A stretch of 64,000 nucleotides of DNA from an uncultured Syntrophaceae bacterium (GTDB lineage: Bacteria; Desulfobacterota; Syntrophia; Syntrophales; UBA2192): positions 13,089 through 77,088 of the forward strand of contig CAZUBX010000001.1 of NCBI GenBank assembly GCA_964619035.1, given 5' to 3'. Both the position numbers and the translations under genes were made by a program. The notes beneath the pieces are model-generated. The model worked only from the letters and a program-made list of their open reading frames with translations. It was not told the DNA's origin and made no database searches. Shown in pieces: positions 1,686 through 49,762 of the stretch (position 1 is its first letter; each line of letters opens with the position of its first letter).

Positions 1686-1709
1686 GTTGATGAGTTGAGA
1701 AGTTGATGA
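1686..1709 (+). repeat. Tandem octamers GTTGATGA-GTTGAGAA-GTTGATGA
   Basis: Three contiguous 8-mers read directly. They lie between the stop codon at 1676-1678 and the start codons of the M48 gene. Confidence 0.8.
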
Positions 1710-3223
1710 GGGAAATGACAATGATTGAATCCCGATGGAAATCGCGTGCAGGGGAAATTGGAAGCTTCCGGGTGGCGTTGCATTTATTGTTGCTGACCCT
1801 GCTGTGCGCGTTTCTCGCCTCCTGTGCCGCGAACCCCGTAACCGGCAAGGACGAATTGATGCTGGTCTCCGAGGAGGAGGAGATCAAGATCGGCAACTCG
1901 GTCTACCGCGATGCCCTCTGGAGCGCCGAGGGGGGCGGCGGGGAATACCAGGATGCCCAGCTCAAGCGTTATCTCGAGGGCGTCGTCATGAGGCTGCACA
2001 AGACATCCCACAGGCCGAACCTGCCGCTGACCTTCAGTGTCCAGAACAGCTCCGTCCCCAATGCCTGGGCCATTCCGGGTCATGTGGTCATGACGCGGGG
2101 GCTGATCGCCGGGCTGGAAAACGAGGGGGAATTTGCCTACGTCATGGGGCACGAAATCGGCCACGTCTCGGCGAAACACTCTGCGAAGCAGATGTCGCAG
2201 AAAATGATGCTGGGCCTGGCCCTGGGCATCGCGGCCGCTGCCGTCGGCGGGGATGACTACGGTGAGGCCGTGGTGGGGCTTGGCGCCCTGGGTGGACAGC
2301 TCCTGCTGCTCAAATACAGCCGCGATGACGAACTCGAGGCGGACCGGCTCGGTGTTGCCTACATGAGCCGCCAGGGCTACGACCCGAACAACGCCCTGAG
2401 CGCTCACCGGAACCTGGACAAGGTCTTCAAGGAGTATGCCCGGTCCGTGGGACAGGAGCCCGGCGAACGGAACTTCTTCGAAGAGCTTCTGTCGACACAC
2501 CCCCGCACCTCCGTGCGGATCGACGAGATGCAGCAGATGATCAGCTCGACACCGCGATCCGCCCTGTCCGGAGACGGATCGAGCCGGGCGACGTACCAGT
2601 CCATGACGGCAAACATGCGCAGGACGCACCGGGTGTACACGGAATACTACGACAAGGCTGCGAGGGCCTTCGAGAAAAACCGTCTCGTGGAAGCGAACAA
2701 TTACCTGAGCAGGGCCATCACCGAGGACCGCTACCAGCCGCCTTTTTACGCCTTGGCGGGATTCATCTACCTCAAACAGAACAATCAGGCCGACGCGGAG
2801 CGATACTTCCGGGCAGCCCTTTCCCTGCAGGGAAACTACCAGCCCGCCGTTCGCGGCCTCGGGATGATGAACTACCGCAAGCAGAACTACGCCGGGAGCA
2901 TAGATTATATGAGACAGGCGGTTCAGATCTTCCCGGGGGATGTGACGGCTCAGCGGCTTTTGGGCTTGAGCTACTACAGGACAGGAAATTACCGGGCTGC
3001 CATCATGCCGCTGGAAACCGTTGCACAGGCCAGTCCGAAAAACAAGACGATCCACGGCATCCTCGGCCAGTGCTACGAGGGCATCAACGATCAAAAATCC
3101 GCCTACGGGCATTATAAACTGCAGCTACAGGCGGCCTCCGACAACGATGTCGGGCGCCTCGCGTCGGCGCGTGTCAAGGAGTGGAAACCCCGGTTCGAGC
3201 CGGAGCAACCGAAGAAGAAGTAA
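1703..3223 (+). CDS. M48-family Zn metalloprotease with C-terminal TPR domain (BepA-like), lipoprotein
   Basis: HEIGH zinc motif (YVMGHEIGHVSAKH). Lipobox LASC. C-terminal TPR-like repeats (YALAGFIYLKQNNQADAERYFRAALSL...). Alternative ATG starts at 1706, 1715 and 1721. Confidence 0.85.
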   Translation: MMREMTMIESRWKSRAGEIGSFRVALHLLLLTLLCAFLASCAANPVTGKDELMLVSEEEEIKIGNSVYRDALWSAEGGGGEYQDAQLKRYLEGVVMRLHKTSHRPNLPLTFSVQNSSVPNAWAIPGHVVMTRGLIAGLENEGEFAYVMGHEIGHVSAKHSAKQMSQKMMLGLALGIAAAAVGGDDYGEAVVGLGALGGQLLLLKYSRDDELEADRLGVAYMSRQGYDPNNALSAHRNLDKVFKEYARSVGQEPGERNFFEELLSTHPRTSVRIDEMQQMISSTPRSALSGDGSSRATYQSMTANMRRTHRVYTEYYDKAARAFEKNRLVEANNYLSRAITEDRYQPPFYALAGFIYLKQNNQADAERYFRAALSLQGNYQPAVRGLGMMNYRKQNYAGSIDYMRQAVQIFPGDVTAQRLLGLSYYRTGNYRAAIMPLETVAQASPKNKTIHGILGQCYEGINDQKSAYGHYKLQLQAASDNDVGRLASARVKEWKPRFEPEQPKKK

Positions 3224-4308: not shown

Positions 4309-4473
4309 TTCCCTTCCTTCCGCAATGTGGGACACCAATCTATTCAATCGGACAGTTCGACCTTTTTCTGAAACGAAATCAACCGGAAACGCGGCGAGCG
4401 CAAAATGCGTCGATCTTGCTGGCCCCAAGCCAGCTGGCATGAAAATTGATCTATTCCGGGACAGGAGCGGTTT

Positions 4474-5289
4474 ATGAAAATACCAGCTGTCTTGGATGAA
4501 GTCGTACGTCGGGCCGGAAAGAGGGAGCCTCTTGAAACAGGCCGTGCCGCTTTGAATGGGACCGACGGGGTGGGGAACTTCAAAAAGATCTTGGAAACGC
4601 AGATGGCCGCCTCAGGCGAAAATGTGCCCCGGGGGGCGGCCTTCGGAATCGGCGATGAAAAGAAAATCACCCAACTCATAGAAATCGTACGGCTCCGAAT
4701 GATGCTGGACGAGCATCTGCTGGAATCCATGCGGGATAAAGGGGACGATCAGTCCCTCTATCAGCGTTTTTCCCGCTGGCAGCTGGGCGGGCTCAACGCC
4801 GTTTCCCCTCCTGCCGGGCAGGCAAAGCCCGGAGCTGAAAATCCAGCCCCGCTGGCCGTCGAAGAGGTGCCTTCCGTTGTAAGGGTCCGCAAGTCATCGG
4901 ACAGGGAACGGCAGTACGAGCCCATCATCCGTCAGGCATCGGAGACATACGGCGTCGATGCGGGACTCATCCGTGCTGTCATCCGCGCCGAAAGCAATTT
5001 CCGCAACGAGAGCACCTCACCGAAGGGGGCCATGGGCCTGATGCAGATCATGCCCGAAACGGCAAAGGACCTGGGGATCCGGGATGCCTATGACGCGCAA
5101 GAGAACATCATGGGCGGGACACGCTACCTGAAAGGCCTGTTGGACCGGTATCGGGGCGATGTGCCGACGGCACTTGCAGCCTACAACTGGGGGATGGGGA
5201 ATGTGGAGCGGCGTCCCGAAAAGCTGCCCCGGGAAACGCGGGTCTACATCAACCGGATCCAGCAGTTCATGGATCAAAGAAAAACTTGA
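4474..5289 (+). CDS. Lytic transglycosylase (SLT domain) protein
   Basis: SLT catalytic region AESNFRNESTSPKGAMGLMQIMPETAKDLG...AYNWGMGNV. No obvious signal peptide in the 130-aa N-terminal part. Confidence 0.85.
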   Translation: MKIPAVLDEVVRRAGKREPLETGRAALNGTDGVGNFKKILETQMAASGENVPRGAAFGIGDEKKITQLIEIVRLRMMLDEHLLESMRDKGDDQSLYQRFSRWQLGGLNAVSPPAGQAKPGAENPAPLAVEEVPSVVRVRKSSDRERQYEPIIRQASETYGVDAGLIRAVIRAESNFRNESTSPKGAMGLMQIMPETAKDLGIRDAYDAQENIMGGTRYLKGLLDRYRGDVPTALAAYNWGMGNVERRPEKLPRETRVYINRIQQFMDQRKT

Positions 5290-9504: not shown

Positions 9505-9921
9505 ATGCCGTGGGAGATCAGCGTTGCACTGGCTGCAGCGGCCCTGCTGGCGCTTGCCGCTGTCGCGACCATGACATTGGCTGAGATGCGAAGAGCGGGC
9601 AGAAATGTCACGGAACTCACCGCAACCATGGAGAGGCACCTGCCCGCCATTCTTCAAAACCTCGACGAAATCAACCGCAATGCCAATGCCTTGAAGTCCT
9701 CCATTCAGGCCCTTTCGGACAGGGCCGCCGAAACGGGCAAGGGATTCGAGAGAGTCGCCGGCGACGTCCACGCCGCAGCGCAATCCCTCGAGGAGAGCTT
9801 GATCGCTCCGGTCCTCAAGACCGTGAAAGGGGTGTCAACCCTTCTCGCCTTCGGTGCCGCCCTCCGGGGGCTGCGCCACCCTCTCAGGCTGTGGCTGTGG
9901 AGGGGGCAGGGCAGGGCGTGA
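9505..9921 (+). CDS. DUF948-like protein (copy 2)
   Basis: GAGGAGG SD 9 nt before the ATG at 9505. TM helix followed by HLPAILQNLDEINRNANALKSS. Its 3' end overlaps the convergent gene by 87 nt. Confidence 0.6.
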   Translation: MPWEISVALAAAALLALAAVATMTLAEMRRAGRNVTELTATMERHLPAILQNLDEINRNANALKSSIQALSDRAAETGKGFERVAGDVHAAAQSLEESLIAPVLKTVKGVSTLLAFGAALRGLRHPLRLWLWRGQGRA

Positions 9922-42133: not shown

Positions 42134-42237
42134 TCTTCCTTTGCACCGTTCGTACACCTGCCGGGCAAAGACAATAAATATGGACAGCGGGTCCGGAATA
42201 TGTTAGCAAGTTCTCTTTGATTTTGGGGAAAACGTCT

Positions 42238-43092
42238 ATGAATTTCGGCGGGATCGATCCAGAATACGAAGCACTCGAAAAGGCGGCCTTTGTGGTCGTT
42301 CCTGTTCCCTATGATCTGACGACAACTTACCAGGGCGGGGCCCGCAAGGGGCCTTCGGCCATCCTCGAGGCCTCCTGCAATATGGAGCTCTACGACGAGG
42401 AACTCGAGGCGGAGATTTACAAAGCGGGAATCCATACCTTGGCGCCCCTGGAGGCAGTCGCAGCAGGGCCGGAAGGTATGCTTGCGCGAGTAGAGGAAGC
42501 CGTGGCGGACGTTCTCGAGACGGGAAAAATTCCCGTCATGCTGGGCGGCGAGCACAGCATCACGCTCGGGGCCGTAAGGGCAGCAAAGAAGCGTTATCCG
42601 AAGCTCTCGGTGCTCCATCTGGACGCGCATGCCGACATGCGGGCCGCCTATCAGGGGACCCCTTACAGCCATGCCTGTATCGGCAGAAGGATGAAGGAGC
42701 TCTGCCCGGTCGTGCAGGTCGGTATCCGGAGCATGAGCGTCGAGGAAGCCGCCTTTATCCGGAAGGAACGCATCCCCGTTTTCACGGCGGCGGCCATACG
42801 GAAGGACCGCTCATGGGTCGGCAAGGTCCTTCGCCACCTCTCGAGGGATGTCTACATCAGTGTAGACCTGGACGCCTTCGACCCCTCGGTGATGCCGGCA
42901 ACAGGCACTCCCGAGCCAGGGGGAATGCTGTGGCATGACGTTCTCGATGTGATCCGGGAGGTCTGTCGAAAGCGACGCATCGTCGGGTTCGACCTGGTCG
43001 AACTGGCGCCCATCCCCGGCATGGTGGCCCCGGACTTCCTGGCGGCCAGGCTTGCTTACCGAATGATGGGCTATTTGTCGAAAAAATCCTGA
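42238..43092 (+). CDS. speB: Agmatinase
   Basis: Ureohydrolase motifs GGEHSIT, HLDAHADM and SVDLDAFDPS. Confidence 0.85.
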   Translation: MNFGGIDPEYEALEKAAFVVVPVPYDLTTTYQGGARKGPSAILEASCNMELYDEELEAEIYKAGIHTLAPLEAVAAGPEGMLARVEEAVADVLETGKIPVMLGGEHSITLGAVRAAKKRYPKLSVLHLDAHADMRAAYQGTPYSHACIGRRMKELCPVVQVGIRSMSVEEAAFIRKERIPVFTAAAIRKDRSWVGKVLRHLSRDVYISVDLDAFDPSVMPATGTPEPGGMLWHDVLDVIREVCRKRRIVGFDLVELAPIPGMVAPDFLAARLAYRMMGYLSKKS

Positions 43093-43107
43093 TAAAGGAG
43101 AGGATAC

Positions 43108-43659
43108 GTGAATATCTGGGTACCCAAAAAGATCTTTTTCACCAAGGGCGTAGGGAACCACAAGGAAGAGCTGCACTCTTTCGAACTGGCCCTCCGGAAC
43201 GCGGGGATCGAGAAATTCAACCTGGTTTACGTATCGAGCATTTTCCCCCCGGGCTGCAGGATGATCTCCAAGGCGAAGGGGCTGCAGGAAAAACACCCCG
43301 GCGAGATCACCTACTGCGTCATGAGCCGCTGCTCCAGCAACGAGCCCTATCGTATGCTGGCCGCTTCCGTCGGTTGTGCCATCCCGGCCGATACGTCACA
43401 GTACGGATACATCAGCGAGCATCACGCCTACGGACAGCCTGAAAAACCGGCCGGTGACTACGCGGAGGACCTGGCCGCCGCCATGCTGGCCTCGACGCTG
43501 GGCATCGATTTCGACGTCGACAAAAGCTGGGATGAGAACAAGGAGATCTTCAAGATCAGCGGCAAGATCGTTCGGACGCGAAACGTGACCCAGTCCGCCA
43601 TCGTCCCGAGAAAGGGCGGGTGGACGACCGTCGTTGCCGCCGCGGTATTTGTCTTCTAG
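43108..43659 (+). CDS. pdaD: Pyruvoyl-dependent arginine decarboxylase
   Basis: [43 protein letters not shown] is the PdaD signature and includes the SS cleavage site. GTG start. Confidence 0.85.
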
Positions 43660-43745: not shown

Positions 43746-43822
<77 letters not shown>

Positions 43823-43885: not shown

Positions 43886-44716
43886 TCACCGGGCTTTGTA
43901 AACCTGCATGGCCTCGGGGATCAGGGACTCGATGTTACGGATTCTGGAATCCGGGGCAGGGTGAGTGGACAGAAACTCCGGCGGGCGTGCTCCCCCTTTG
44001 GCGTTCATGCGTTGCCACAGGACAACGGCCCCTCTGGGGTCATAGCCCGCCTTGGCCATCAGGATCAACCCGATGTGGTCGGCTTCAGACTCTTGGATGC
44101 GGCTGTAGGGAAGCAGGAAGCCGACCTGGGCCCCCACTCCGTAGGCCTGCATGAAGATGTCCGAGGTGACTCCGGGATTTCCGGCCAGTGCCACGGACAG
44201 CCCGATGGCCCCGAACTGGGCAAGCAGACCCTGGCTCATCCTCTCATTGCCGTGCTTGGCGATGGCGTGGGCGACCTCGTGCCCCATGACGACGGCAAGT
44301 CCGTTCTCGTCCTGTGAGATGGGAAGCAGGCCCGTGTACACGGCCACCTTGCCTCCCGGCATGCACCAGGCGTTGACCGTCTTGTCGTCCTCGATCAGGT
44401 TGAATTCCCACTTGTAATTCCGGATATCGTCCCCATGGCCCTTTTCAAACAGCAGCTGCTCGGAGGCCGTCGCGATCCGTTGCCCTGCGCGGCGCACCAT
44501 GCTCACCTTTGCCATGTCCGTCGAGAGTTTCGACTTTTTGAGTACGTTATTATACTCTTGGTAGCTCATCGATGTGAGTTCGGAATCCGGGACAAGATGC
44601 AAACCCCTGCGTTCCGTCACGGGGACGGAGGCACAGGAAAACAGAAAGAAGGAAAGGATCAGAAGGAAGCCGAGTTGCCGGAAATGCCTGACAGGTGCGT
44701 GCGGGACGGCTTTCAT
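43886..44716 (-). CDS. M48-family metalloprotease lipoprotein (LoiP/YcaL-like)
   Basis: Lipobox LFSCAS. HEVAH zinc motif (VVMGHEVAHAIAKHGNERM). Downstream ESEADHIG. Confidence 0.85.
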   Translation of the reverse strand: MKAVPHAPVRHFRQLGFLLILSFFLFSCASVPVTERRGLHLVPDSELTSMSYQEYNNVLKKSKLSTDMAKVSMVRRAGQRIATASEQLLFEKGHGDDIRNYKWEFNLIEDDKTVNAWCMPGGKVAVYTGLLPISQDENGLAVVMGHEVAHAIAKHGNERMSQGLLAQFGAIGLSVALAGNPGVTSDIFMQAYGVGAQVGFLLPYSRIQESEADHIGLILMAKAGYDPRGAVVLWQRMNAKGGARPPEFLSTHPAPDSRIRNIESLIPEAMQVYKAR

Positions 44717-44821: not shown

Positions 44822-45292
44822 TCACGCGCTGCAGGGAAGGGGACTCTCCGCGCGAGGAGCATCTTGTTTCGCAGAATTGCGGAAGAATGATTGGGGGGAA
44901 CCCTCTTTTTTTTCAGCCGTCTCCGTCGAGATAAAAATCCCCTTGGCAATATGCTGACCTTTTCGTTCGATATATTTCACGGTTGCTCGGGCGCCCAGGG
45001 GAATCTCGGAGGGCTTCACGGAATCCAAGTCTATCTTGACAACGGTGCTGTCGTCAAATGTCAGGTAAACATCCTCATCCTTGAATCTCACAGTGATTGT
45101 CCTGGTCCTGGCATTGACGGCGAGGACTTCGCCGGAAAGGTGCTTGACCCGAACCGTCTTCTGCTGCTCGACAGATTTCTTTTGCGCTGTGCCGCCCGGC
45201 TTCACGGGCGCCTTTTCGGGAGACTGCACGCATGCCCCATACATCAAGACGATCGAGATGAAAGCAGCTATGAAAAGGGTTCGGATCTTCAC
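44822..45292 (-). CDS. Hypothetical lipoprotein
   Basis: The GTG at 45292 follows an AGGAGA SD. VKIRTLFIAAFISIVLMYGAC is a lipoprotein signal. Beta-rich body with no recognised family. Confidence 0.55.
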   Translation of the reverse strand: MKIRTLFIAAFISIVLMYGACVQSPEKAPVKPGGTAQKKSVEQQKTVRVKHLSGEVLAVNARTRTITVRFKDEDVYLTFDDSTVVKIDLDSVKPSEIPLGARATVKYIERKGQHIAKGIFISTETAEKKEGSPQSFFRNSAKQDAPRAESPLPCSA

Positions 45293-45459
45293 CGGCTCTC
45301 CTGATAACAAAGGTGATGCGTGGAAAACTGAAAAGGTGTTTCACTTTTTTCGGTTCGTGCGGTTTGATCGTGATCCAGCGAACGGTTAAGCTACCCGAGG
45401 GGCATCGTATCTACGATGCCCCTCCGGTCAGCCTGTCTTGATGTGATAGATCGGGTAGC

Positions 45460-45750
45460 TTACTTCTTTTCGGGTGCCTTCTTCTCTTCGGCCTTCGGAG
45501 CCGGAGCAGCTTCCTTCTTGGGGGCGTCCTTCTTGGCGTCTTTCTTGGGGGCCTTCTTCTCGGCCTTCTTCTTGTCAGCCTTCTTGGCGTCCTTCTTGGG
45601 CTCGGCCTTCTTGTCGTCAGCCTTCTTCTCGGGAGCCGGAGCAGCCTCCTTCTTCTCGGGTGCCTTTGCAGGAGCTGCCTGGGCGAAGCACAGACCCGTC
45701 GTCGCCACCGCGAAAATCATGGCAAACAGAATTGCGAGAACCTTCTTCAT
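45460..45750 (-). CDS. Secreted Lys/Ala/Pro/Glu/Asp-rich mini-protein (paralog A, 96 aa)
   Basis: GGAGGTGA SD. Signal peptide MKKVLAILFAMIFAVATTGLCFA/QAAP. The mature part consists only of K, A, P, E, D and Q (PEKK, KKDAKK, KKADKK repeats). Confidence 0.7.
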   Translation of the reverse strand: MKKVLAILFAMIFAVATTGLCFAQAAPAKAPEKKEAAPAPEKKADDKKAEPKKDAKKADKKKAEKKAPKKDAKKDAPKKEAAPAPKAEEKKAPEKK

Positions 45751-45790
45751 TTGTTTTCACCTCCTTTCTGTTGAACTTGATAGATGCTAT

Positions 45791-45806
45791 ATCAAAGAGC
45801 ATGCCA
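45791..45806 (-). promoter_or_regulatory. Sigma54-type -24/-12 promoter candidate for paralog A
   Basis: The minus strand reads TGGCAT-gctct-TTGA, against the consensus TGGCAC-N5-TTGC. The -12 element lies 42 nt upstream of the ATG. Confidence 0.5.
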
Positions 45807-46123
45807 TTCAGCGCATTAACATATTAACGTATAATTACAACATGTTACAATAAAGCTGCTTTTGCGTAGGATCCTCTATTTTTACGTTTTCCCAAGGCGG
45901 TATCCTAATTTTGGATTATCATGACATATTTAGGAGAATAACCTGTTCTCTTTCAAAGCCAAGTTACGTATTTAAATTTCGATGACAGCATCGTTACGGC
46001 TTAGCGACGGGGAATCTGATATCGGAGCTGCCTTATTATCTCAATGATTATGATAATTTGTAGAAATTCGGGCGGGAATGATCAACGCGGAAACATCTTC
46101 CGGCGAGATGGCATACAGACAAC

Positions 46124-46156
46124 AAAAAAAAAGGGATACCGGCTTACCGGTACCCC
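46124..46156 (-). terminator. Rho-independent terminator after paralog B
   Basis: The minus strand reads GGGGTACCGG-taag-CCGGTATCCC followed by T9. Confidence 0.8.
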
Positions 46157-46191
46157 TTTTCGATACTGACTTGTATAATAAAGCCAGTTGC

Positions 46192-46497
46192 TTACTTCTT
46201 TTCGGGTGCAGGAGCGGGAGCAGCAGGCTTCTTCTCGTCGGCCTTGGGAGCCTCCTTCTTCGCGTCCTTCTTGGGCTCGGCCTTCTTCTTGTCAGCCTTC
46301 TTCTTGTCGGCCTTCTTGGCGTCCTTCTTGGGCTCGGCCTTCTTCTCGGGTGCCTTTGCCTTGTCGTCAGCCTTCTTCTCGGGAGCCGGAGCAGCCTTTT
46401 CGGCCGGCTTCGCTGCCGGAGCTGCCTGGGCGAAGCACAGACCCGTCGTCGCCACCACGAAAATCATTGCAAACAGGATTGCGAGAACCTTCTTCAT
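46192..46497 (-). CDS. Secreted Lys/Ala/Pro/Glu/Asp-rich mini-protein (paralog B, 101 aa)
   Basis: GGAGGTGA SD. Signal peptide MKKVLAILFAMIFVVATTGLCFA/QAAP. The mature part has the same composition as paralog A. The first ~100 nt and the last ~18 nt are nearly identical to paralog A. Confidence 0.7.
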   Translation of the reverse strand: MKKVLAILFAMIFVVATTGLCFAQAAPAAKPAEKAAPAPEKKADDKAKAPEKKAEPKKDAKKADKKKADKKKAEPKKDAKKEAPKADEKKPAAPAPAPEKK

Positions 46498-46538
46498 TTG
46501 TTGTCACCTCCCTTTCGTTTGTTTTGAAGCAGACACTT

Positions 46539-46554
46539 TACAAGGACCGTGCCA
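46539..46554 (-). promoter_or_regulatory. Sigma54-type -24/-12 promoter candidate for paralog B
   Basis: The minus strand reads CTGGCACGGTCCTTGTA, against the consensus YTGGCACGR-N3-TTGCW (one mismatch at -12). The -12 element lies 43 nt upstream of the ATG. Confidence 0.6.
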
Positions 46555-46733
46555 GAAGTCTTCTTATACATATCTGTCATAATATCAACTAGTTGAAAAT
46601 GACGCGCGGTTTAGACTTCGAGCGGAATTTACAATTACAGGAACAACCTTACCATTTCGGGAAAGTGAAAACTAATTTAGGAAAGATGTTACATTATTTG
46701 GAAGGAGGGTTACGTTATTGAAAAACAGCAAGG

Positions 46734-48296
46734 CTAGTCATGGGCCGGCCGGTTCATGCCATATTTATCCCAGCGATATGCAAAGGCCCGGTAGCTCATG
46801 TTCAGGAGACGGGCGGCCCGGGCTCCGACGTTGTTTGCCTTTTCCATCGCCTTTTTGAGCAGATCCCGCTCGAGCTCCTCATGGCTGATCCCTCCATCGG
46901 GAATGCCCTCCTTGAGGATACTCTTGAGAGAATCCCGCTTTGCAGGGTCATCGAGCTCATACTTTTTCCAGCTGTACCAGAAGGCGTCATAGTTCATATC
47001 CAGCAGCCGTGCGGCTTTTGCCAGCACATGGCTGGACTTCGCCATGGCCTTCACGAGAAGCTCCTTTTCCAGCTCCTCGAGGTCGATCCCCTCGTCGGGG
47101 ATCTCGATGCCCATGGCAGGCCTTGGCGCCGTTCTCAGTTCCCCCCGAATGTCACCGAGGCCGATCGTGTCGGACTCACACATCAAAACGGCCTTTTCCA
47201 GGACGGATTGGAGCTCGCGGACATTGCCCGGCCAGTTGTAATGAATGATCGCCTTCATCGCCCCGTCATCGATTTTTACAATATTTTTAGCGACATTGTG
47301 ATTCAACTTCTGCAGAAAGAAGTTTACGAGCTCGGGGAGATCTTCCCTTCGATCCCGGAGCGGGGGCATCTGGATGGTTACAACCTTCAGGCGATAAAAC
47401 AGGTCTTCCCTGAAGTGACCGTTTTTCATCTCTACCTGGAGATCCTTGTTCGTGGCGGAGAGGATCCGGACGTCGACCTTGATGGACTCGCGGCCCCCGA
47501 CACGCATGATCTCACGTTCCTGCAGGACCCTGAGGATCTTGGCCTGGGTCATCATGGGGAGATCGCCGACTTCATCGAGGAAGATCGTGCCGCTGTTCGC
47601 TGCCTCGAAGAGCCCTTTCTTGCGCTGTGTGGCGCCGGTAAAGGCGCCGGGCTCGTAACCGAAGAGCTCGCTCTCGAGAAGCGTCTCCGGAATGGCGGCG
47701 CAGTTGATGGCCATGAAGGCCTTCTCGCGGCGTCCGCTGTTGTAGTGGATGGCCTTGGCGATCAGTTCCTTGCCCGTGCCGCTTTCGCCCAGGATGAGAA
47801 CCGTGGCGGGGCTGTCGGCCACTTTCCGGATGATGTGGATGACGTCCTTGATCGCCCTGGAGTGGCCGATGATCCCCTGGATGCTGAACATATCGTTCAG
47901 GGCCTTGCGCAGTTCGAGGTTGCGCTGCATCAGCTCCTTGCGCTCCGTGGCGCGCCGGATGGCAAGGAGCACGACCTCCTTGTCGAGCGGTTTCGTCAGG
48001 TAGTCGAAGGCGCCTTTCTTCATGGCATCGACTGCCGAGTCGATAGTCCCGAAGGCGGTCATGATCAGCACCGTCGGGGCCTGCTTTAGCCCCTTGAGCT
48101 TTTCGAGGAGATCGATGCCGTCCATCTTTCCCATCTTGAGGTCCGAGAGCACCACGTCCGGCTCGTATGTCCTGGCCAGCTTCAAGGCTTCCTCGCCGGA
48201 AGCGGCCGAGTAGGTCTCATATCCCTCATCGGAAAGGATGGTCTTGAGGATCTCGCGCTGGAGGGGTTCGTCGTCTACGATCAGGATGACCGCCAT
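46734..48296 (-). CDS. Sigma54-dependent response regulator (NtrC family) with two tandem Fis-type HTH domains
   Basis: REC domain (LIVDDE...VVLSDLKM). AAA+ domain with Walker A GESGTGKE, GAFTGA loop and Walker B IFLDEVGD. Two C-terminal copies of IPDxGIxxEELExxLLxKAMxK...AARLLxMxYxAFxYxWxKY. Confidence 0.9.
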   Translation of the reverse strand: MAVILIVDDEPLQREILKTILSDEGYETYSAASGEEALKLARTYEPDVVLSDLKMGKMDGIDLLEKLKGLKQAPTVLIMTAFGTIDSAVDAMKKGAFDYLTKPLDKEVVLLAIRRATERKELMQRNLELRKALNDMFSIQGIIGHSRAIKDVIHIIRKVADSPATVLILGESGTGKELIAKAIHYNSGRREKAFMAINCAAIPETLLESELFGYEPGAFTGATQRKKGLFEAANSGTIFLDEVGDLPMMTQAKILRVLQEREIMRVGGRESIKVDVRILSATNKDLQVEMKNGHFREDLFYRLKVVTIQMPPLRDRREDLPELVNFFLQKLNHNVAKNIVKIDDGAMKAIIHYNWPGNVRELQSVLEKAVLMCESDTIGLGDIRGELRTAPRPAMGIEIPDEGIDLEELEKELLVKAMAKSSHVLAKAARLLDMNYDAFWYSWKKYELDDPAKRDSLKSILKEGIPDGGISHEELERDLLKKAMEKANNVGARAARLLNMSYRAFAYRWDKYGMNRPAHD

Positions 48297-48310
48297 GAAT
48301 TGTCGTCTCC

Positions 48311-49762
48311 TTATACTACCGATGTCCGATCCGTGTCCGTTTCAGAAAGGGGGAGGCTGATCGTCACCTCGCTGCCCTGACCCTCGGCGCTCACGAATTC
48401 GATCTTTCCGCCGTGCTCCTCGATGACCCGCTTCGTCATGGCAAGGCCGAGGCCGAGCCCCTGGCTCTTGGTCGTGAAGAAAGGCTCGAAGATCCGCGTG
48501 AGATTTTCCTTCGACACACCGATTCCCGTGTCGCTCAGGTGAAGGACAAACCAGCCGTTCTGTCTTTCCGTCGCGATCGTCAGCGATCCACCGCCCGGCA
48601 TGGCCTGGAAGGCATTGTTGACCACGTTGAAGAGGCAGCTTTTCATGAGTTCCGCATCCATCCGGAGCTGCGGCAGGGCATCATAGCGCTCAAGGATCTG
48701 GATATGGTCGGATTCCGCCTTTGCCTTCACGATCTCGACGACATCGGCGAGCAACTCCTGCGTCTGAACGGGCTGAAGATCGAGTTTCAGAGGCTTTCCG
48801 TAGTCGAGGAAATCACGGACGAGCCGGTCGAGCCGATGAATCTCCCCTTTCATGCTCTCCACGAGCTTTACAAACCCCTCGGCCTGGGCGCCGTCCAGGG
48901 GACGGTATTTCGTCTTGATGTGATCGATGCTGAGGCTGATGAAGTTCAGCGGGTTACGGATTTCGTGAGCGATCCCCCGTGCGAGCTGCCCCACAGCGGA
49001 GAGGTGCTCCGCTTCCCGGAGCCGCTCCTCTAGACGCCGCTGCTCCCGGAGCTTTTGGACCATGTCGTTGAAGCTCCGGGTCAGATCCCCGATCTCATCT
49101 TTGCGGTCCACCGGCAGGTTCTGGTCGAGATCGCCGGCCGCCACCTTGCGGGCTGCCGCTACGACATTGTGAATGGGCCCTGTATACCACAAGGACAGGA
49201 ACGTCGAGATCACGATGCCGATGGCGAAAACGCACAGGGCCGCTACGATTCGCATGGTCGTGTTCTGCCTCATGGTCTCCTGGAGGCTCTCGACATTGAT
49301 CTGCAGATGGATGTAGCCGTAATGGGCCTGGCCGGCGATGACGGGGATGATGACATTGTAGGCCTTGCCCTCCCGATCTACGGCGGGTTCCCCGAGTTCG
49401 GCCTTGATGATGAGTTCCTTCTTTTTCTGGCTCACCGATGTACCGACCTGGTTGGGGTTCGTACTGGCAATGATCTCGTCGGCGTTGCTGATGATGGAGA
49501 TCTCCTTGATCCCCTTGGTCTTGAGCGAGGTCAGATACTGCTCCAGGCGCGTCTCGCTTGTTGCCCCCCCGGTCACCTCCTCGACGCCCACCTGTACGGC
49601 CTGGGCCAGTTCGGCCGTCTGGCTTTCGATCTGGGCCATCATGTTCTTTTCGGACTTCCAGTAGATGGTGATCAGGGTGACCAGCAGGATTGCGGTCAGG
49701 AAGAGCATCATACTGATGAGCTTCTTGGTGAGGGATAGATTGAGGAAAAAGGTCTTGAACAT
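48311..49762 (-). CDS. Sensor histidine kinase (TM-periplasmic sensor-TM-HAMP-HisKA-HATPase)
   Basis: ATG at 49762. Two TM helices flank a domain of about 150 aa. HAMP domain (AAGDLDQNLPVDRKDEIGDLTRSFNDMV). H-box IAHEIRNPLNF. N, G1 and G2 boxes (NNAFQAM, DTGIGV, GLGLGLA). Confidence 0.85.
   Translation of the reverse strand: MFKTFFLNLSLTKKLISMMLFLTAILLVTLITIYWKSEKNMMAQIESQTAELAQAVQVGVEEVTGGATSETRLEQYLTSLKTKGIKEISIISNADEIIASTNPNQVGTSVSQKKKELIIKAELGEPAVDREGKAYNVIIPVIAGQAHYGYIHLQINVESLQETMRQNTTMRIVAALCVFAIGIVISTFLSLWYTGPIHNVVAAARKVAAGDLDQNLPVDRKDEIGDLTRSFNDMVQKLREQRRLEERLREAEHLSAVGQLARGIAHEIRNPLNFISLSIDHIKTKYRPLDGAQAEGFVKLVESMKGEIHRLDRLVRDFLDYGKPLKLDLQPVQTQELLADVVEIVKAKAESDHIQILERYDALPQLRMDAELMKSCLFNVVNNAFQAMPGGGSLTIATERQNGWFVLHLSDTGIGVSKENLTRIFEPFFTTKSQGLGLGLAMTKRVIEEHGGKIEFVSAEGQGSEVTISLPLSETDTDRTSVV

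What the first reader, a model, noticed from the sequence alone, without database searches (positions are those of the whole stretch)
45460..49762. Candidate new module: HK + sigma54 activator controlling two tandem secreted polycationic disordered mini-proteins
The minus-strand order is sensor kinase (48311-49762), a 14-nt gap, the NtrC-type activator (46734-48296), mini-gene B (46192-46497) and mini-gene A (45460-45750).

The two mini-proteins share an almost identical Sec signal peptide (MKKVLAILFAMIF[A/V]VATTGLCFA|QAAP). Their ~73-78-aa mature parts are made solely of K, A, P, E, D and Q. Paralog A has about 27 Lys against 15 acidic residues by my count. The repeats are PEKK, KKDAKK and KKADKK, resembling a histone-H1 tail or a TonB spacer, but exported.

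Each gene has the same SD (GGAGGTGA) and a -24/-12-like element at the same distance from its ATG: TGGCACGGTCCTTGT at 43 nt and TGGCATGCTCTTTGA at 42 nt. Gene B has its own strong terminator. The surrounding 45.75-46.73 kb intergenic DNA is conspicuously AT-rich. Signal-peptide DNA (45671-45775 versus 46418-46520) is about 95% identical, suggesting gene conversion or recent duplication.

I do not recognise this protein type as a described family. A periplasmic or secreted polycation under enhancer-dependent control could act on LPS, eDNA, polyphosphate or minerals, or as an envelope stress buffer. An M48 lipoprotein protease and an unknown lipoprotein lie just downstream.
Basis: partly seen in the sequence, partly recalled or inferred. 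Interest (0 to 1): 0.75.

Follow-up and report, generated by a model that had tools for sequence, protein, structure and literature searches.

The report
Sigma-54 switch driving secreted polylysine-like mini-proteins
A sensor kinase and its sigma-54 activator sit next to two tiny genes for exported, lysine-rich, disordered proteins of an unnamed family; the same wiring recurs in about 30 uncultured Syntrophales genomes, and what the proteins do is still unknown.

Summary

**What the locus contains**
- The minus strand carries a histidine kinase, an NtrC-type sigma-54 activator, two monocistronic mini-genes, a lipoprotein and an M48 protease.
- Both mini-proteins have a signal peptide followed by a tail of about 75 residues made only of K, A, P, E, D and Q. 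Each tail has 27 Lys and a net charge of +12, and AlphaFold predicts it as coil.

**What comparison adds**
- The family occurs in 29 species-level genome loci, almost all labelled Syntrophales/Syntrophaceae, and fades into a wider class of similar mini-proteins.
- All 49 upstream regions examined carry a -24/-12 element about 41-45 nt before the ATG.
- Kinase-activator-mini-gene synteny holds in about 18 loci.
- I found an enhancer: five phased TTCC-N7-GTAA sites before gene B and three before gene A, at fixed distances from the promoter in 12 species.
- The activator has two Fis-type HTH domains, and this is conserved in two distant orthologues checked.
- Codon-position statistics show the minus-strand frame is under protein-level selection.

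**Classification**
- No Pfam or NCBIfam family matches, and every source calls these proteins hypothetical.
- The closest functional analogue is E. coli Asr, a periplasmic disordered polycationic chaperone. It is not homologous.

Regulation and export are well supported. The molecular function is inferred only.

The parts
48311..49762 (-). Sensor histidine kinase, 483 aa. It has two TM segments (residues 9-37 and 167-195) enclosing a periplasmic loop of about 130 aa that is weakly Cache-like, followed by HAMP, HisKA (H-box at 266) and HATPase_c.
   Evidence: Orthologues are 60-98% identical and syntenic.
46734..48296 (-). NtrC-type sigma-54 enhancer-binding response regulator, 520 aa. It has REC, an AAA+ domain (Walker A at 170, GAFTGA at 217), an AAA lid and two tandem Fis-type HTH_8 domains.
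   Evidence: The dual HTH_8 is also present in the orthologues of L012 and L031.
46629..46724 (-). Enhancer (UAS-B): five same-strand sites matching TTCCnAAAwwnGTAA. They lie at 46710-46724, 46689-46703, 46669-46683, 46649-46663 and 46629-46643, spaced 20-21 bp, and begin 10 bp after the RR stop codon.
   Evidence: The offsets of -170/-149/-129/-109/-89 from the -24 element recur in all 12 species (two lack one detected site). Three of the four exact TTCC-N7-GTAA matches in the 64-kb window lie here.
46555..46628 (-). AT-rich spacer between the enhancer and promoter B, with an IHF-like TTTCAActagTTG.
   Evidence: The IHF assignment is inference only.
46540..46554 (-). Sigma-54 promoter of gene B, TGGCACGGTCCTTGT. 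The predicted transcription start is near 46528, giving a 5' UTR of about 31 nt.
   Evidence: The transcription start is inferred from the canonical -24/-12 geometry.
46504..46511 (-). Shine-Dalgarno GGAGGTGA of gene B.
   Evidence: It is conserved in nearly all family members.
46192..46497 (-). Mini-gene B, 101 aa. The signal peptide is MKKVLAILFAMIFVVATTGLCFA|QA and the mature tail is 78 aa (K27 A23 P12 E8 D7, net +12).
46120..46161 (-). Intrinsic terminator of gene B: a 15-bp stem followed by a T-run.
   Evidence: It is conserved in orthologues, with occasional base differences in the stem.
45882..45936 (-). Enhancer (UAS-A): three phased sites of the same type at 45922-45936, 45902-45916 and 45882-45896. 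They are more degenerate than those of UAS-B.
   Evidence: The offsets are -130, -110 and -90 from the -24 element; six of the eight other species with a second gene have sites within 3 bp of these, L015 is shifted and L020/L026 lack one.
45792..45806 (-). Sigma-54 promoter of gene A, TGGCATGCTCTTTGA. The predicted transcription start is near 45780.
45757..45764 (-). Shine-Dalgarno GGAGGTGA of gene A.
45460..45750 (-). Mini-gene A, 96 aa. It has the same signal peptide as B apart from one residue, and a mature tail of 73 aa (K27 A20 P10 E9 D6, net +12).
45385..45462 (-). Conserved 3' RNA structure after gene A. An outer stem includes the stop codon and encloses a conserved loop and a GC-rich hairpin (45395-45428). 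There is no U-tract.
   Evidence: There are 24 consensus pairs at -34 kcal/mol across 9 species.
44822..45292 (-). Lipoprotein-like 156-aa protein with a confidently predicted OB-fold barrel (residues 48-122). It is conserved downstream of the mini-genes. Whether it belongs to the regulon is uncertain.
43886..44716 (-). M48 metalloprotease lipoprotein, LoiP/BepA-like. It is syntenic in 7 related loci. Any link to the module is by position only.

Best explanation
This is a self-contained enhancer-dependent output module.

**Proposed sequence of events**
1. The membrane kinase senses an extracytoplasmic cue through its periplasmic loop of about 130 aa. This step is inferred.
2. It phosphorylates the NtrC-type regulator.
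3. The regulator assembles on a phased, same-orientation array of TTCC-N7-GTAA sites: five before gene B and three before gene A, spaced 20-21 bp. The sites and their conservation are shown; binding is inferred.
4. Across an AT-rich, probably bent spacer, it activates sigma-54 holoenzyme at two separate -24/-12 promoters. The promoters are shown to be conserved; their activity is inferred.
5. Each promoter drives one very short, probably highly expressed gene. Lys is encoded by AAG in 57 of 58 codons, and the SD is strong.
6. The products are exported by Sec and probably cleaved after CFA. The first five mature residues carry no charge, as Sec export requires.
7. This releases disordered polycations of about 75 residues, with about 37% Lys (27 of 73-78 mature residues) and a net charge of +12.

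**Most likely function (inferred by analogy only)**
The proteins act as bulk periplasmic or cell-surface polycations in the manner of E. coli Asr. They would bind anionic envelope or matrix polymers (outer membrane/LPS, exopolysaccharide, eDNA) or anionic client proteins, to protect or remodel the cell exterior under a specific envelope condition.
For: **Gene and domain content.** Established.

**Family and distribution.**
- The family spans 29 species-level genome loci, 27 of them labelled Syntrophales/Syntrophaceae or Deltaproteobacteria.
- A profile search of 1.84 billion representatives finds 212 clusters.

**Sigma-54 promoters.**
- A -24/-12 element lies 41-45 nt before the ATG in all 43 non-redundant genes. 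Of these, 33 match a strict regular expression and 10 were read by eye.
- The two GTG-start genes and four remote members also carry it.

**Synteny and enhancer.**
- HK-RR-mini-gene synteny holds in about 18 loci with RR identity of 64-98%.
- The phased site array sits at the same offsets in 12 species (two lack one detected site).
- In the window, 7 of 22 matrix hits cluster in the two enhancers and the rest are isolated.
- Three of four exact matches lie within 75 bp.
- More distant orthologous loci carry arrays of similar layout but different site sequence.

**Coding and export.**
- Protein-level selection is shown by differences of 0.007, 0.007 and 0.349 at codon positions 1, 2 and 3 in the TGLCFAQA codons.
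- Across 42 proteins the mature N-terminus is neutral (K+R 0.01 in residues 1-5, rising to 0.5 in the core), and 39 of 42 end in KK.
- AlphaFold predicts only the signal-peptide helix; the tail is coil with pLDDT about 50-55.

**Context from the literature.**
- Asr is an abundant, acid-induced, periplasmic disordered chaperone that supports outer-membrane integrity (PMC10746267).
- Sigma-54 regulons centre on the cell exterior (PMC3162934).
Against: - No expression, export or binding data exist for any member, and all carriers are uncultured.
- rpoN was not seen in the window (one search covered only part of it).
- The -12 element is TTGT or TTGA rather than the consensus TTGC in this clade.
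- About half the family's loci have no adjacent kinase and regulator. One such clade has a different upstream element, so this particular two-component system is not the universal regulator.
- The mini-proteins are not homologous to Asr. They lack its histidines, so Asr's pH-tuned charge mechanism cannot simply be transferred.
- The invariant TGLCFAQA stretch is unusual for a disposable signal-peptide end and may mean something I have not explained.
Confidence: 0.6

Rival explanations
1. The N-terminal hydrophobic segment is not removed, or is cut earlier at TTG|LC so that the invariant Leu-Cys-Phe stays on the protein. The polycation would then be tethered to the inner membrane, forming a periplasmic brush or spacer in the manner of the TonB or TolA linker regions rather than a soluble secreted protein.
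For: - TGLCFAQA is invariant at the protein level across the family, while the hydrophobic core and the tail vary freely. This is atypical for a cleaved signal peptide.
- The single Cys is always kept.
- The tail's composition resembles known periplasm-spanning linkers; this rests on my own knowledge of those proteins.
Against: - C-F-A|Q fits the -3/-1 rule for signal peptidase I. This is from established knowledge; SignalP was not available.
- T-G-L-C does not fit the lipobox rule, which needs A, G or S at -1.
- The charge-free early mature region is what a cleaved Sec substrate needs.
Confidence: 0.15
2. The mini-proteins act outside the cell as a polylysine-like adhesive. They would bridge negatively charged surfaces so that the syntroph aggregates with partner cells, or they would coat minerals, humic material or eDNA.
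For: - The family is largely confined to genomes labelled Syntrophales/Syntrophaceae or Deltaproteobacteria, a group known for obligate partnerships; the latter point is from general knowledge.
- Net charge is +8 to +19 with no hydrophobic residues.
- Tandem copies and codon bias suggest bulk production.
Against: - There is no evidence that the proteins cross the outer membrane, and no secretion system is encoded next to them in the TCS-linked clade.
- The 15 acidic residues weaken polylysine-like adhesion.
- This idea is entirely speculative.
Confidence: 0.12
3. The mini-proteins are feedback partners of the kinase. In the way ZraP or CpxP act on ZraS or CpxA, they would bind the kinase's periplasmic loop or its ligand and tune signalling, rather than acting on the envelope in bulk.
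For: - The layout matches ZraPSR: a kinase, a sigma-54 regulator and an adjacent small periplasmic protein gene under a sigma-54 promoter.
- ZraS and ZraR are among the better NCBIfam matches.
Against: - Many family members have no adjacent kinase.
- Two copies, strong SD and extreme codon bias point to bulk rather than regulatory amounts.
- The tails vary freely in length and repeat number, which is unlike a specific binding partner.
Confidence: 0.08
4. The mini-proteins are secreted cationic antimicrobial or competition peptides.
For: They are small, cationic, secreted, tandemly duplicated and fast-evolving.
Against: - The mature part has no hydrophobic or aromatic residues, so no amphipathic membrane-active face is possible.
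- Acidic content is high.
- No immunity or export genes are nearby.
Confidence: 0.04
5. The minus-strand ORFs are not translated. The signal would then be a low-complexity artefact, a plus-strand gene or a non-coding RNA.
For: Long plus-strand ORFs overlap both genes.
Against: - Third-position variation is 50 times that of positions 1 and 2 in the conserved codons.
- All 48 unique homologous sequences keep the start, SD, frame and C-terminal KK despite many indels.
- The antisense ORFs are an automatic by-product of AAG/GCC/GAC/CCC codons, whose complements contain no stop codons.
- There is no Rfam match.
Confidence: 0.01

Closest known systems
E. coli Asr (acid shock protein, Pfam PF06392), a periplasmic intrinsically disordered polycationic chaperone
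   Same: - Both have a Sec signal peptide beginning MKKVLA.
- Both have a mature part of about 80 residues that is rich in Lys, Ala and Pro, lacks hydrophobic residues, is disordered and is strongly cationic.
- Both are monocistronic.
[quoted passage not shown]
- A protease gene lies just downstream in both loci: ydgD in E. coli and M48 here.
   Different: - There is no detectable homology. BLASTP gives E = 0.27, hhalign aligns only the signal peptide, and PF06392 hits Asr but not the mini-proteins.
- Asr is rich in His, Gln and Thr with few acidic residues, so its charge is tuned by pH. The mini-proteins have no His and 15 Asp/Glu.
- By my recollection asr is not sigma-54 dependent; this was not checked here.
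- Here there are two tandem copies, each with its own enhancer.
ZraPSR envelope stress system (ZraS kinase, ZraR sigma-54 activator, ZraP periplasmic protein)
   Same: - A membrane kinase and an NtrC-type sigma-54 regulator sit next to a small periplasmic effector gene with a sigma-54 promoter.
- ZraS and ZraR are among the better matches to this kinase and regulator (the ZraR structure appears).
   Different: - Scores are far below the NCBIfam equivalog cut-offs: 197 against 479 for ZraS and 387 against 760 for ZraR.
- ZraP is a folded helical protein of the CpxP/Spy type and is divergently transcribed; this is from general knowledge.
- The effector here is disordered, duplicated and co-directional.
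- The regulator has a second HTH_8.
Lys/Ala/Pro-rich polyanion-binding tails: histone H1 C-terminus, Pseudomonas AlgP, mycobacterial HBHA
   Same: The composition and repeat style (KKxAKK, PEKK, AAPAP) are similar, and a polyanion-binding function is expected. This comparison rests on my own knowledge, not on a test here.
   Different: - H1 and AlgP are cytoplasmic or nuclear DNA binders without signal peptides.
- In HBHA the lysine repeats are an appendage to a folded coiled-coil domain.
- Here the tail is the whole mature protein and it is exported.
- No sequence-family link was found.
PilS-PilR-pilA
   Same: A kinase and a sigma-54 regulator sit directly upstream of a short, highly expressed gene for an exported structural protein.
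   Different: The mini-proteins have a standard signal peptide, not the type IV prepilin leader (G|FTLIE), and have no hydrophobic pilin core.

Membership tests
NtrC-type sigma-54 enhancer-binding response regulators | REC domain, AAA+ sigma-54 interaction domain with GAFTGA, and a C-terminal Fis-type HTH | tested here: met
   - Pfam gives Response_reg at 1.6e-31, Sigma54_activat at 2.1e-73 and HTH_8 at 5.9e-19.
- GAFTGA lies at residue 217 and Walker A at 170.
- The best solved relatives are NtrC-family regulators.
- An unusual extra is that HTH_8 occurs twice.
AtoC / ZraR / NtrC equivalogs (specific named regulators) | Score above the NCBIfam equivalog cut-off | tested here: not met
   AtoC scores 480 against 714, NtrC 428 against 559 and ZraR 387 against 760. 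The protein belongs to the superfamily but is none of the named orthologue groups.
Sigma-54 promoter | GG at -24 and GC at -12 with exact 10-nt spacing (TGGCAC-N5-TTGCW), upstream of a gene near an enhancer-binding protein | tested here: inconclusive
   - GG and the spacing are exact, and the -24 half (TGGCAC/TGGCAT) is consensus.
- The -12 half is TTGT or TTGA here, but TTGC, ATGC or GTGC in other family members.
- Position is conserved in 49 of 49 genes.
- Activity and the transcription start were not testable.
Sigma-54 promoter | rpoN present in the genome | not testable with these tools
   - Only 64 kb is available.
- The ten large ORFs scanned are not RpoN.
- An intact GAFTGA regulator implies rpoN only indirectly.
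Sec-exported proteins with a signal peptidase I site | Basic n-region, hydrophobic h-region of 10-20 residues, small residues at -3 and -1, and no positive charge just after the cut | tested here: met
   - The n-region is MKK, the hydrophobic stretch covers residues 1-23, and the cut site is C-F-A|Q.
- K+R is 0.01 in mature residues 1-5 over 42 proteins.
- AlphaFold predicts a helix at residues 2-19.
- SignalP was not available, and cleavage has not been shown experimentally.
Bacterial lipoproteins (for the mini-proteins) | Lipobox [LVI][ASTVI][GAS]C | tested here: not met
   The sequence T-G-L-C has Leu at -1, seen in all members.
Asr (PF06392) | Match to the Asr profile or significant similarity to E. 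coli Asr in the mature part | tested here: not met
   - There is no PF06392 hit at E <= 0.01, whereas Asr itself hits at 2.2e-12.
- BLASTP gives E = 0.27.
- hhalign aligns only residues 1-20.
Asr-like function (disordered periplasmic polycation) | Exported, disordered, strongly cationic, and induced by an envelope signal | tested here: inconclusive
   - Export signals, predicted disorder and charge are met.
- Induction and chaperone or membrane activity were not testable.
Plant arabinogalactan peptide (PF27998, precomputed weak hit on two homologues) | Real homology rather than shared Ala/Pro/Lys composition | tested here: inconclusive
   - The hit is marked 'weak' on P0037 and P0039 only.
- The model is absent from the local Pfam copy.
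- The phyletic gap and low complexity make a compositional match the likely reading.
CusF/SilF metallochaperones (for the downstream lipoprotein) | OB-fold barrel plus the Met/Met/His(/Trp) Cu(I)/Ag(I) site | tested here: not met
   - The fold matches, with Foldseek E = 4.7e-5 and TM 0.74-0.78 on the target.
- The barrel has no conserved Met or Trp; only His51 is invariant.
- There is no Pfam hit.

The most novel reading that the evidence does not exclude
These mini-proteins would define a previously unrecognised class of bacterial effectors: genetically encoded, Sec-exported, polylysine-like disordered polyampholytes. Their synthesis would be hard-wired to sigma-54 enhancers throughout a lineage of obligate syntrophs. 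They would act outside the cytoplasm as charge-based material, either as adhesive between partner cells or as a coat on envelope, eDNA or mineral surfaces, rather than as folded enzymes or chaperones. Coupled to this, the regulator's duplicated HTH would let a single protomer read one directional TTCC-N7-GTAA site. The phased array would then template the activator ring one protomer per site, a DNA-binding mode not described for NtrC-type activators.
Probability: 0.15. Interest if true: 0.8.

Novelty: new variant of a known kind. Interest (0 to 1): 0.58.

Why it matters
- **Syntroph biology.** Syntrophales are key players in methanogenic carbon turnover, are almost entirely uncultured, and their cell-surface biology is essentially unknown. 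A conserved, dedicated signalling pathway whose only evident output is bulk production of exported polycations points to a specific envelope or cell-contact adaptation in these organisms.
- **Disordered envelope proteins.** The family adds an independent, non-homologous example to the very short list of disordered periplasmic polycations, of which Asr is the only studied case. This suggests that charge-based disordered proteins are a recurrent solution for the bacterial exterior.
- **Sigma-54 regulation.** The rigidly phased, directional five-site enhancer paired with a dual-HTH activator is a clean natural system for studying how enhancer-binding proteins assemble on DNA.

Tried and rejected
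**Searches that found nothing useful**
- Pfam and NCBIfam scans of both mini-proteins gave only sub-threshold compositional hits: tRNA_anti-like at 17.5 bits and EbpS at 21.6 bits against a cut-off of 300.
- An Rfam scan of the whole window found only two tRNAs and nothing in the AT-rich intergenic DNA.
- Five of the six literature searches found no description of such proteins; they covered lysine-rich, sigma-54, Syntrophus, Smithella, polycationic periplasmic disordered proteins and tandem-HTH enhancer-binding proteins. The sixth search located the Asr literature.
- The primary Asr papers were not available.
- rpoN is not among the ten large window ORFs scanned.

**Ideas tested and rejected**
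- Homology to Asr is rejected.
- A lipoprotein reading of the mini-proteins is rejected, because Leu sits at -1.
- A type IV pilin reading is rejected, because there is no prepilin leader.
- A metal-chaperone reading of the downstream lipoprotein is rejected; it has the fold only, with no Met/Trp site.

**Negative results on regulation**
- There is no matrix hit or -24/-12 match upstream of the kinase, so autoregulation of the kinase-regulator operon by the same enhancer is not indicated.
- A sigma-54 promoter for the lipoprotein gene was not seen in the conserved intergenic region. Its membership of the regulon would require read-through of the U-less hairpin.

Full report
**1.

On the minus strand the window carries the following genes:
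- a histidine kinase at 48311-49762;
- a 14-nt gap;
- an NtrC-type response regulator at 46734-48296;
- mini-gene B at 46192-46497 (101 aa);
- mini-gene A at 45460-45750 (96 aa);
- a lipoprotein-like gene at 44822-45292;
- an M48 protease gene at 43886-44716.

Pfam confirms HAMP, HisKA and HATPase_c in the kinase. In the regulator it confirms REC, Sigma54_activat, an AAA lid and HTH_8, and HTH_8 is found twice. The kinase has two membrane segments around a periplasmic loop of about 130 residues. The regulator has Walker A and GAFTGA motifs.

Mature A has 27 Lys, 9 Glu and 6 Asp; mature B has 27 Lys, 8 Glu and 7 Asp. Both have a net charge of +12 and contain only K, A, P, E, D and one Q.

The SD GGAGGTGA, the two -24/-12-like elements, the terminator after B and the AT-rich intergenic DNA are all present.

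**2. The minus-strand frame is the translated one**

The long plus-strand ORFs are an automatic by-product, because the complements of AAG, GCC, GAC, CCC and GAG contain no stop codons. I compared 37 distinct signal-peptide coding sequences from homologues.
- In the eight codons for TGLCFAQA, differences are 0.007 at position 1, 0.007 at position 2 and 0.349 at position 3.
- In the hydrophobic core, position 2 is constrained (0.094) while positions 1 and 3 vary (0.415 and 0.528).

This is the signature of selection on the encoded protein. All 48 unique homologous sequences also keep the start, SD and frame despite many repeat-number changes, and 39 of 42 proteins end in Lys-Lys.

**3. It is a family, not a one-off**

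- A protein search found 41 relatives, all small, none with a name other than 'hypothetical' or an obviously wrong automatic label.
- A scan of one genome per species found 29 loci. Of these, 27 are labelled Syntrophales, Syntrophaceae, Syntrophobacterales or Deltaproteobacteria. One 'Nitrospirota' bin and one 'archaeon' bin may be mis-binned.
- The motif TGLCFAQA at the end of the signal peptide is invariant, whereas the tails differ freely in length (51-92 mature residues) and repeat pattern.
- A profile search of 1.84 billion representative proteins found 212 clusters at E <= 0.001. Nearly all are 45-150 residues and match from residue 1. The family therefore grades into a wider class of 'signal peptide plus Lys-rich tail' mini-proteins with slightly different signal-peptide ends.
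- Tandem pairs are common.

**4. Sigma-54 dependence is the most conserved feature of the family**

- All 43 non-redundant genes have TGG-N9-[T/A]TG-N with the -12 G lying 41-45 nt before the ATG, followed by a strong SD. Thirty-three match a strict pattern. The other ten read TGGAAT...TTGCT, TGGCTC...TTGCT or TGGCAC...TTGG at the same place.
- The two GTG-start genes found later have TGGCAT-N5-ATGC.
- Four remote members drawn from the profile search also have TGGCAC or TGGCAT with TTGG, GTGC, ATGC or TTGA.
- In the window's clade the -12 half is TTGT before the first gene and TTGA before the second. This difference is conserved by position across species. The departure from TTGC is therefore a stable property and not decay.

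**5. The kinase and regulator are linked to the mini-genes by synteny and by an enhancer**

The order kinase-regulator-mini-gene(s) recurs in about 18 loci, with regulator identity from 98% down to 64%.

Aligning the DNA between the regulator's stop codon and the first mini-gene revealed repeated units. An iteratively refined matrix gives the site TTCCnAAAwwnGTAA.
- Before the first gene, sites sit at -170, -149, -129, -109 and -89 from the first base of the -24 element. Twelve species share these offsets with 20-21 bp spacing, always on the coding strand; ten show all five sites and two lack one.
- Before the second gene, three sites sit near -129, -109 and -89; six of the eight other species match within 3 bp, L015 is shifted and L020/L026 lack one.
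- In the window the sites begin at 46724, 46703, 46683, 46663 and 46643, and at 45936, 45916 and 45896.
- Seven of the 22 matrix hits in the whole 64 kb fall in these two clusters, and the others are isolated.
- Three of the four exact TTCC-N7-GTAA matches lie within 75 bp.
- More distant orthologous loci have arrays of similar layout (four or five repeats roughly 20 bp apart by eye) but with altered site sequence, for example ACCCTAAAAnGAGGAAT in L012 and TTTGYnAAnnnGGAAAA in L034. This is what co-evolution of a regulator with its sites would produce.
- An AT-rich stretch with an IHF-like sequence lies between the array and the promoter. I did not test it further.

**6. Not every member uses this regulator**

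- One clade (L006, L033, L035-L043) and another (L009, L029, L032) have no kinase or regulator within the flanks.
- The first of these has a different, highly conserved upstream element, GTTAGGGAATTATTCCCCAAAGGAAGGGGAATACTTCCTCA.
- L009 and L032 have arrays of TCCTnAAAnnnGGAT-like repeats.
- L027 and L028 have window-type sites.

The constant features are therefore the sigma-54 promoter and an upstream site cluster. The activator may be encoded elsewhere or may be a different protein.

**7. Properties of the proteins**

- AlphaFold, given the family alignment, predicts a helix only for residues 2-19. The rest is coil with pLDDT about 50-55.
- Across 42 proteins, mature residues 1-5 carry no charge (K+R fraction 0.01). 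Charge rises gradually to a core with about 50% Lys and +0.3 net charge per residue. Absence of positive charge just after the cleavage site is a known requirement for Sec export.
- The cut site C-F-A|Q fits the -3/-1 rule, and T-G-L-C does not fit a lipobox. SignalP was not available, so cleavage is inferred.
- Lys is encoded by AAG in 57 of 58 codons, against 74-79% in the neighbouring regulator and kinase. GCT is enriched among Ala codons. Together with the strong SD this suggests high expression, but repeat homogenisation could contribute.

**8. Concerted evolution**

- Within a genome the two copies are 0.92-1.0 identical over the signal-peptide codons in nine of ten loci (0.81 in L024). 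In L016 they are 100% identical over the first 150 nt.
- Identity falls to about 0.7 in the 5' UTR and about 0.55 in the promoter and enhancer.
- Promoter type follows gene position across species, whereas tail type does not.

Gene conversion therefore homogenises the coding regions while each copy keeps its own control region.

**9. Neighbours**

- The downstream 156-aa protein has a lipoprotein-type signal and a confidently modelled OB-fold barrel (pLDDT above 90 for residues 48-122).
- Its best structural matches are CusF and SilF (E = 4.7e-5), but it lacks their Met/Trp metal site.
- It follows the mini-genes in all close relatives. At about 30% identity it also follows them in three loci without the kinase and regulator.
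- No sigma-54 promoter precedes it.
- Gene A is followed by a conserved RNA structure that includes its stop codon and has no U-tract. Read-through into the lipoprotein gene is therefore possible but unproven.
- The M48 protease is syntenic in seven loci.
- In the more distant kinase-linked loci the downstream genes are different.

**10. Comparison with what is known**

The regulator is a bona fide NtrC-family activator but falls below the cut-offs for AtoC, NtrC and ZraR.

The closest system by layout is ZraPSR. The closest protein by nature is E. coli Asr. [quoted passage not shown] 2022).

I fetched asr from MG1655 and compared it directly.
- Asr matches PF06392, but the mini-proteins do not.
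- BLASTP gives E = 0.27.
- Profile comparison aligns only the signal peptide.

The mini-proteins are analogues of Asr and not members of its family. They differ in having no His and many acidic residues.

The general view that sigma-54 regulons centre on the cell exterior (PMC3162934) fits an exported product.

**11. Verdict**

- The regulatory architecture (kinase, dual-HTH sigma-54 activator, phased enhancer, two -24/-12 promoters, two monocistronic genes) is well supported by sequence conservation. I put it at about 0.85.
- Export and disorder are likely, at about 0.8.
- The molecular role, an Asr-like bulk polycation acting on anionic envelope or matrix components, is an inference by analogy, at about 0.3.
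- It is a new, unnamed protein family attached to a known kind of control system.
- The duplicated HTH together with directional, phased sites is an additional feature worth testing.

Noticed in passing
window 46734-47120 (-), C-terminal 128 residues of the regulator: The regulator carries two tandem Fis-type HTH_8 domains, at about residues 405-447 and 473-512. The duplication is kept in orthologues that are only 64-65% identical (L012, L031). The enhancer sites are directional and not palindromic, with half-sites about 11 bp apart. One protomer might therefore read one site.
   Followed up: partly
window 45385-45462 (-): A conserved RNA structure lies directly after gene A. Its outer stem pairs the stop codon region (UAAGCUACCC) with GGGUAGCUUA and encloses a conserved loop (UCAAGACAGGCU) and a GC-rich hairpin. 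There is no U-tract. It has 24 consensus pairs in 9 species, and only 2 pairs show covariation. There is no Rfam match.
   Followed up: partly
L006 7100-7260 and 7780-7940; also L033, L035, L037, L038, L041-L043: Mini-genes without an adjacent kinase and regulator share a different, nearly invariant upstream element containing two inverted repeats: GTTAGGGAATTATTCCCCAAAGGAAGGGGAATACTTCCTCA. It is presumably the site of another activator.
   Followed up: no
window 4435-4449 (+) and 9671-9685 (-): These are the only two other matches to TGGCAY-N5-TTGH in the window. The first lies 25 nt upstream of an SLT-domain lytic transglycosylase ORF (4474-5289), which is too close for a typical sigma-54 5' UTR.
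   Followed up: partly
P0001, P0002, P0016, P0030, P0031, P0035, P0038 (metagenome homologues): Several database homologues are frameshifted within the Lys-codon repeats and read on as Arg-rich nonsense. These may be assembly errors in the repeats or real slippage, and they show the repeats are error-prone.
   Followed up: no
L015, L016 and window (paralogue pairs): Tandem copies are identical or nearly so in the 5' coding region (L016: 100% over 150 nt), while their promoters and enhancers are only about 55% identical. Gene conversion is confined to the coding sequence.
   Followed up: yes
window 44822-45292 (-): The downstream lipoprotein has a CusF/SilF-like OB-fold barrel but none of the Met/Trp metal ligands. 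The family has no Pfam model, and its JGI names (GroES, FlaF, and others) are plainly spurious.
   Followed up: yes
window 42217-43659 (+): An arginase-family gene (probably agmatinase) and a pyruvoyl-dependent arginine decarboxylase gene, which together make polyamines, lie just beyond the M48 gene and a tRNA (43746-43819). The same arrangement occurs on contig L001. A polyamine pathway lies next to polycation genes, and I did not establish any link between them.
   Followed up: no
window 1703-3223 (+): A second M48 protease with TPR repeats (BepA-like architecture) is encoded elsewhere in the window.
   Followed up: no
L012 8287-9231, L034 6428-7278, L040 6457-7275: In the more distant kinase-linked loci the mini-gene is followed not by the OB-fold lipoprotein but by a conserved protein of about 270-314 aa. 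The L012 copy has no Pfam hit. In L012 and L034 this protein is followed by a DUF362 protein and a multi-4Fe-4S membrane protein.
   Followed up: no
P0037, P0039 (L006-L008): A precomputed weak hit to PF27998 'ArabinogalactanP', a plant Ala/Pro/Lys-rich peptide family. It is probably compositional, and the model is absent from the local Pfam copy.
   Followed up: partly
L048 (E. coli MG1655 1671376-1672781): In E. coli, asr is followed by the small gene ydgU and the putative serine protease gene ydgD. This is a positional parallel to mini-gene, small gene and protease here.
   Followed up: no
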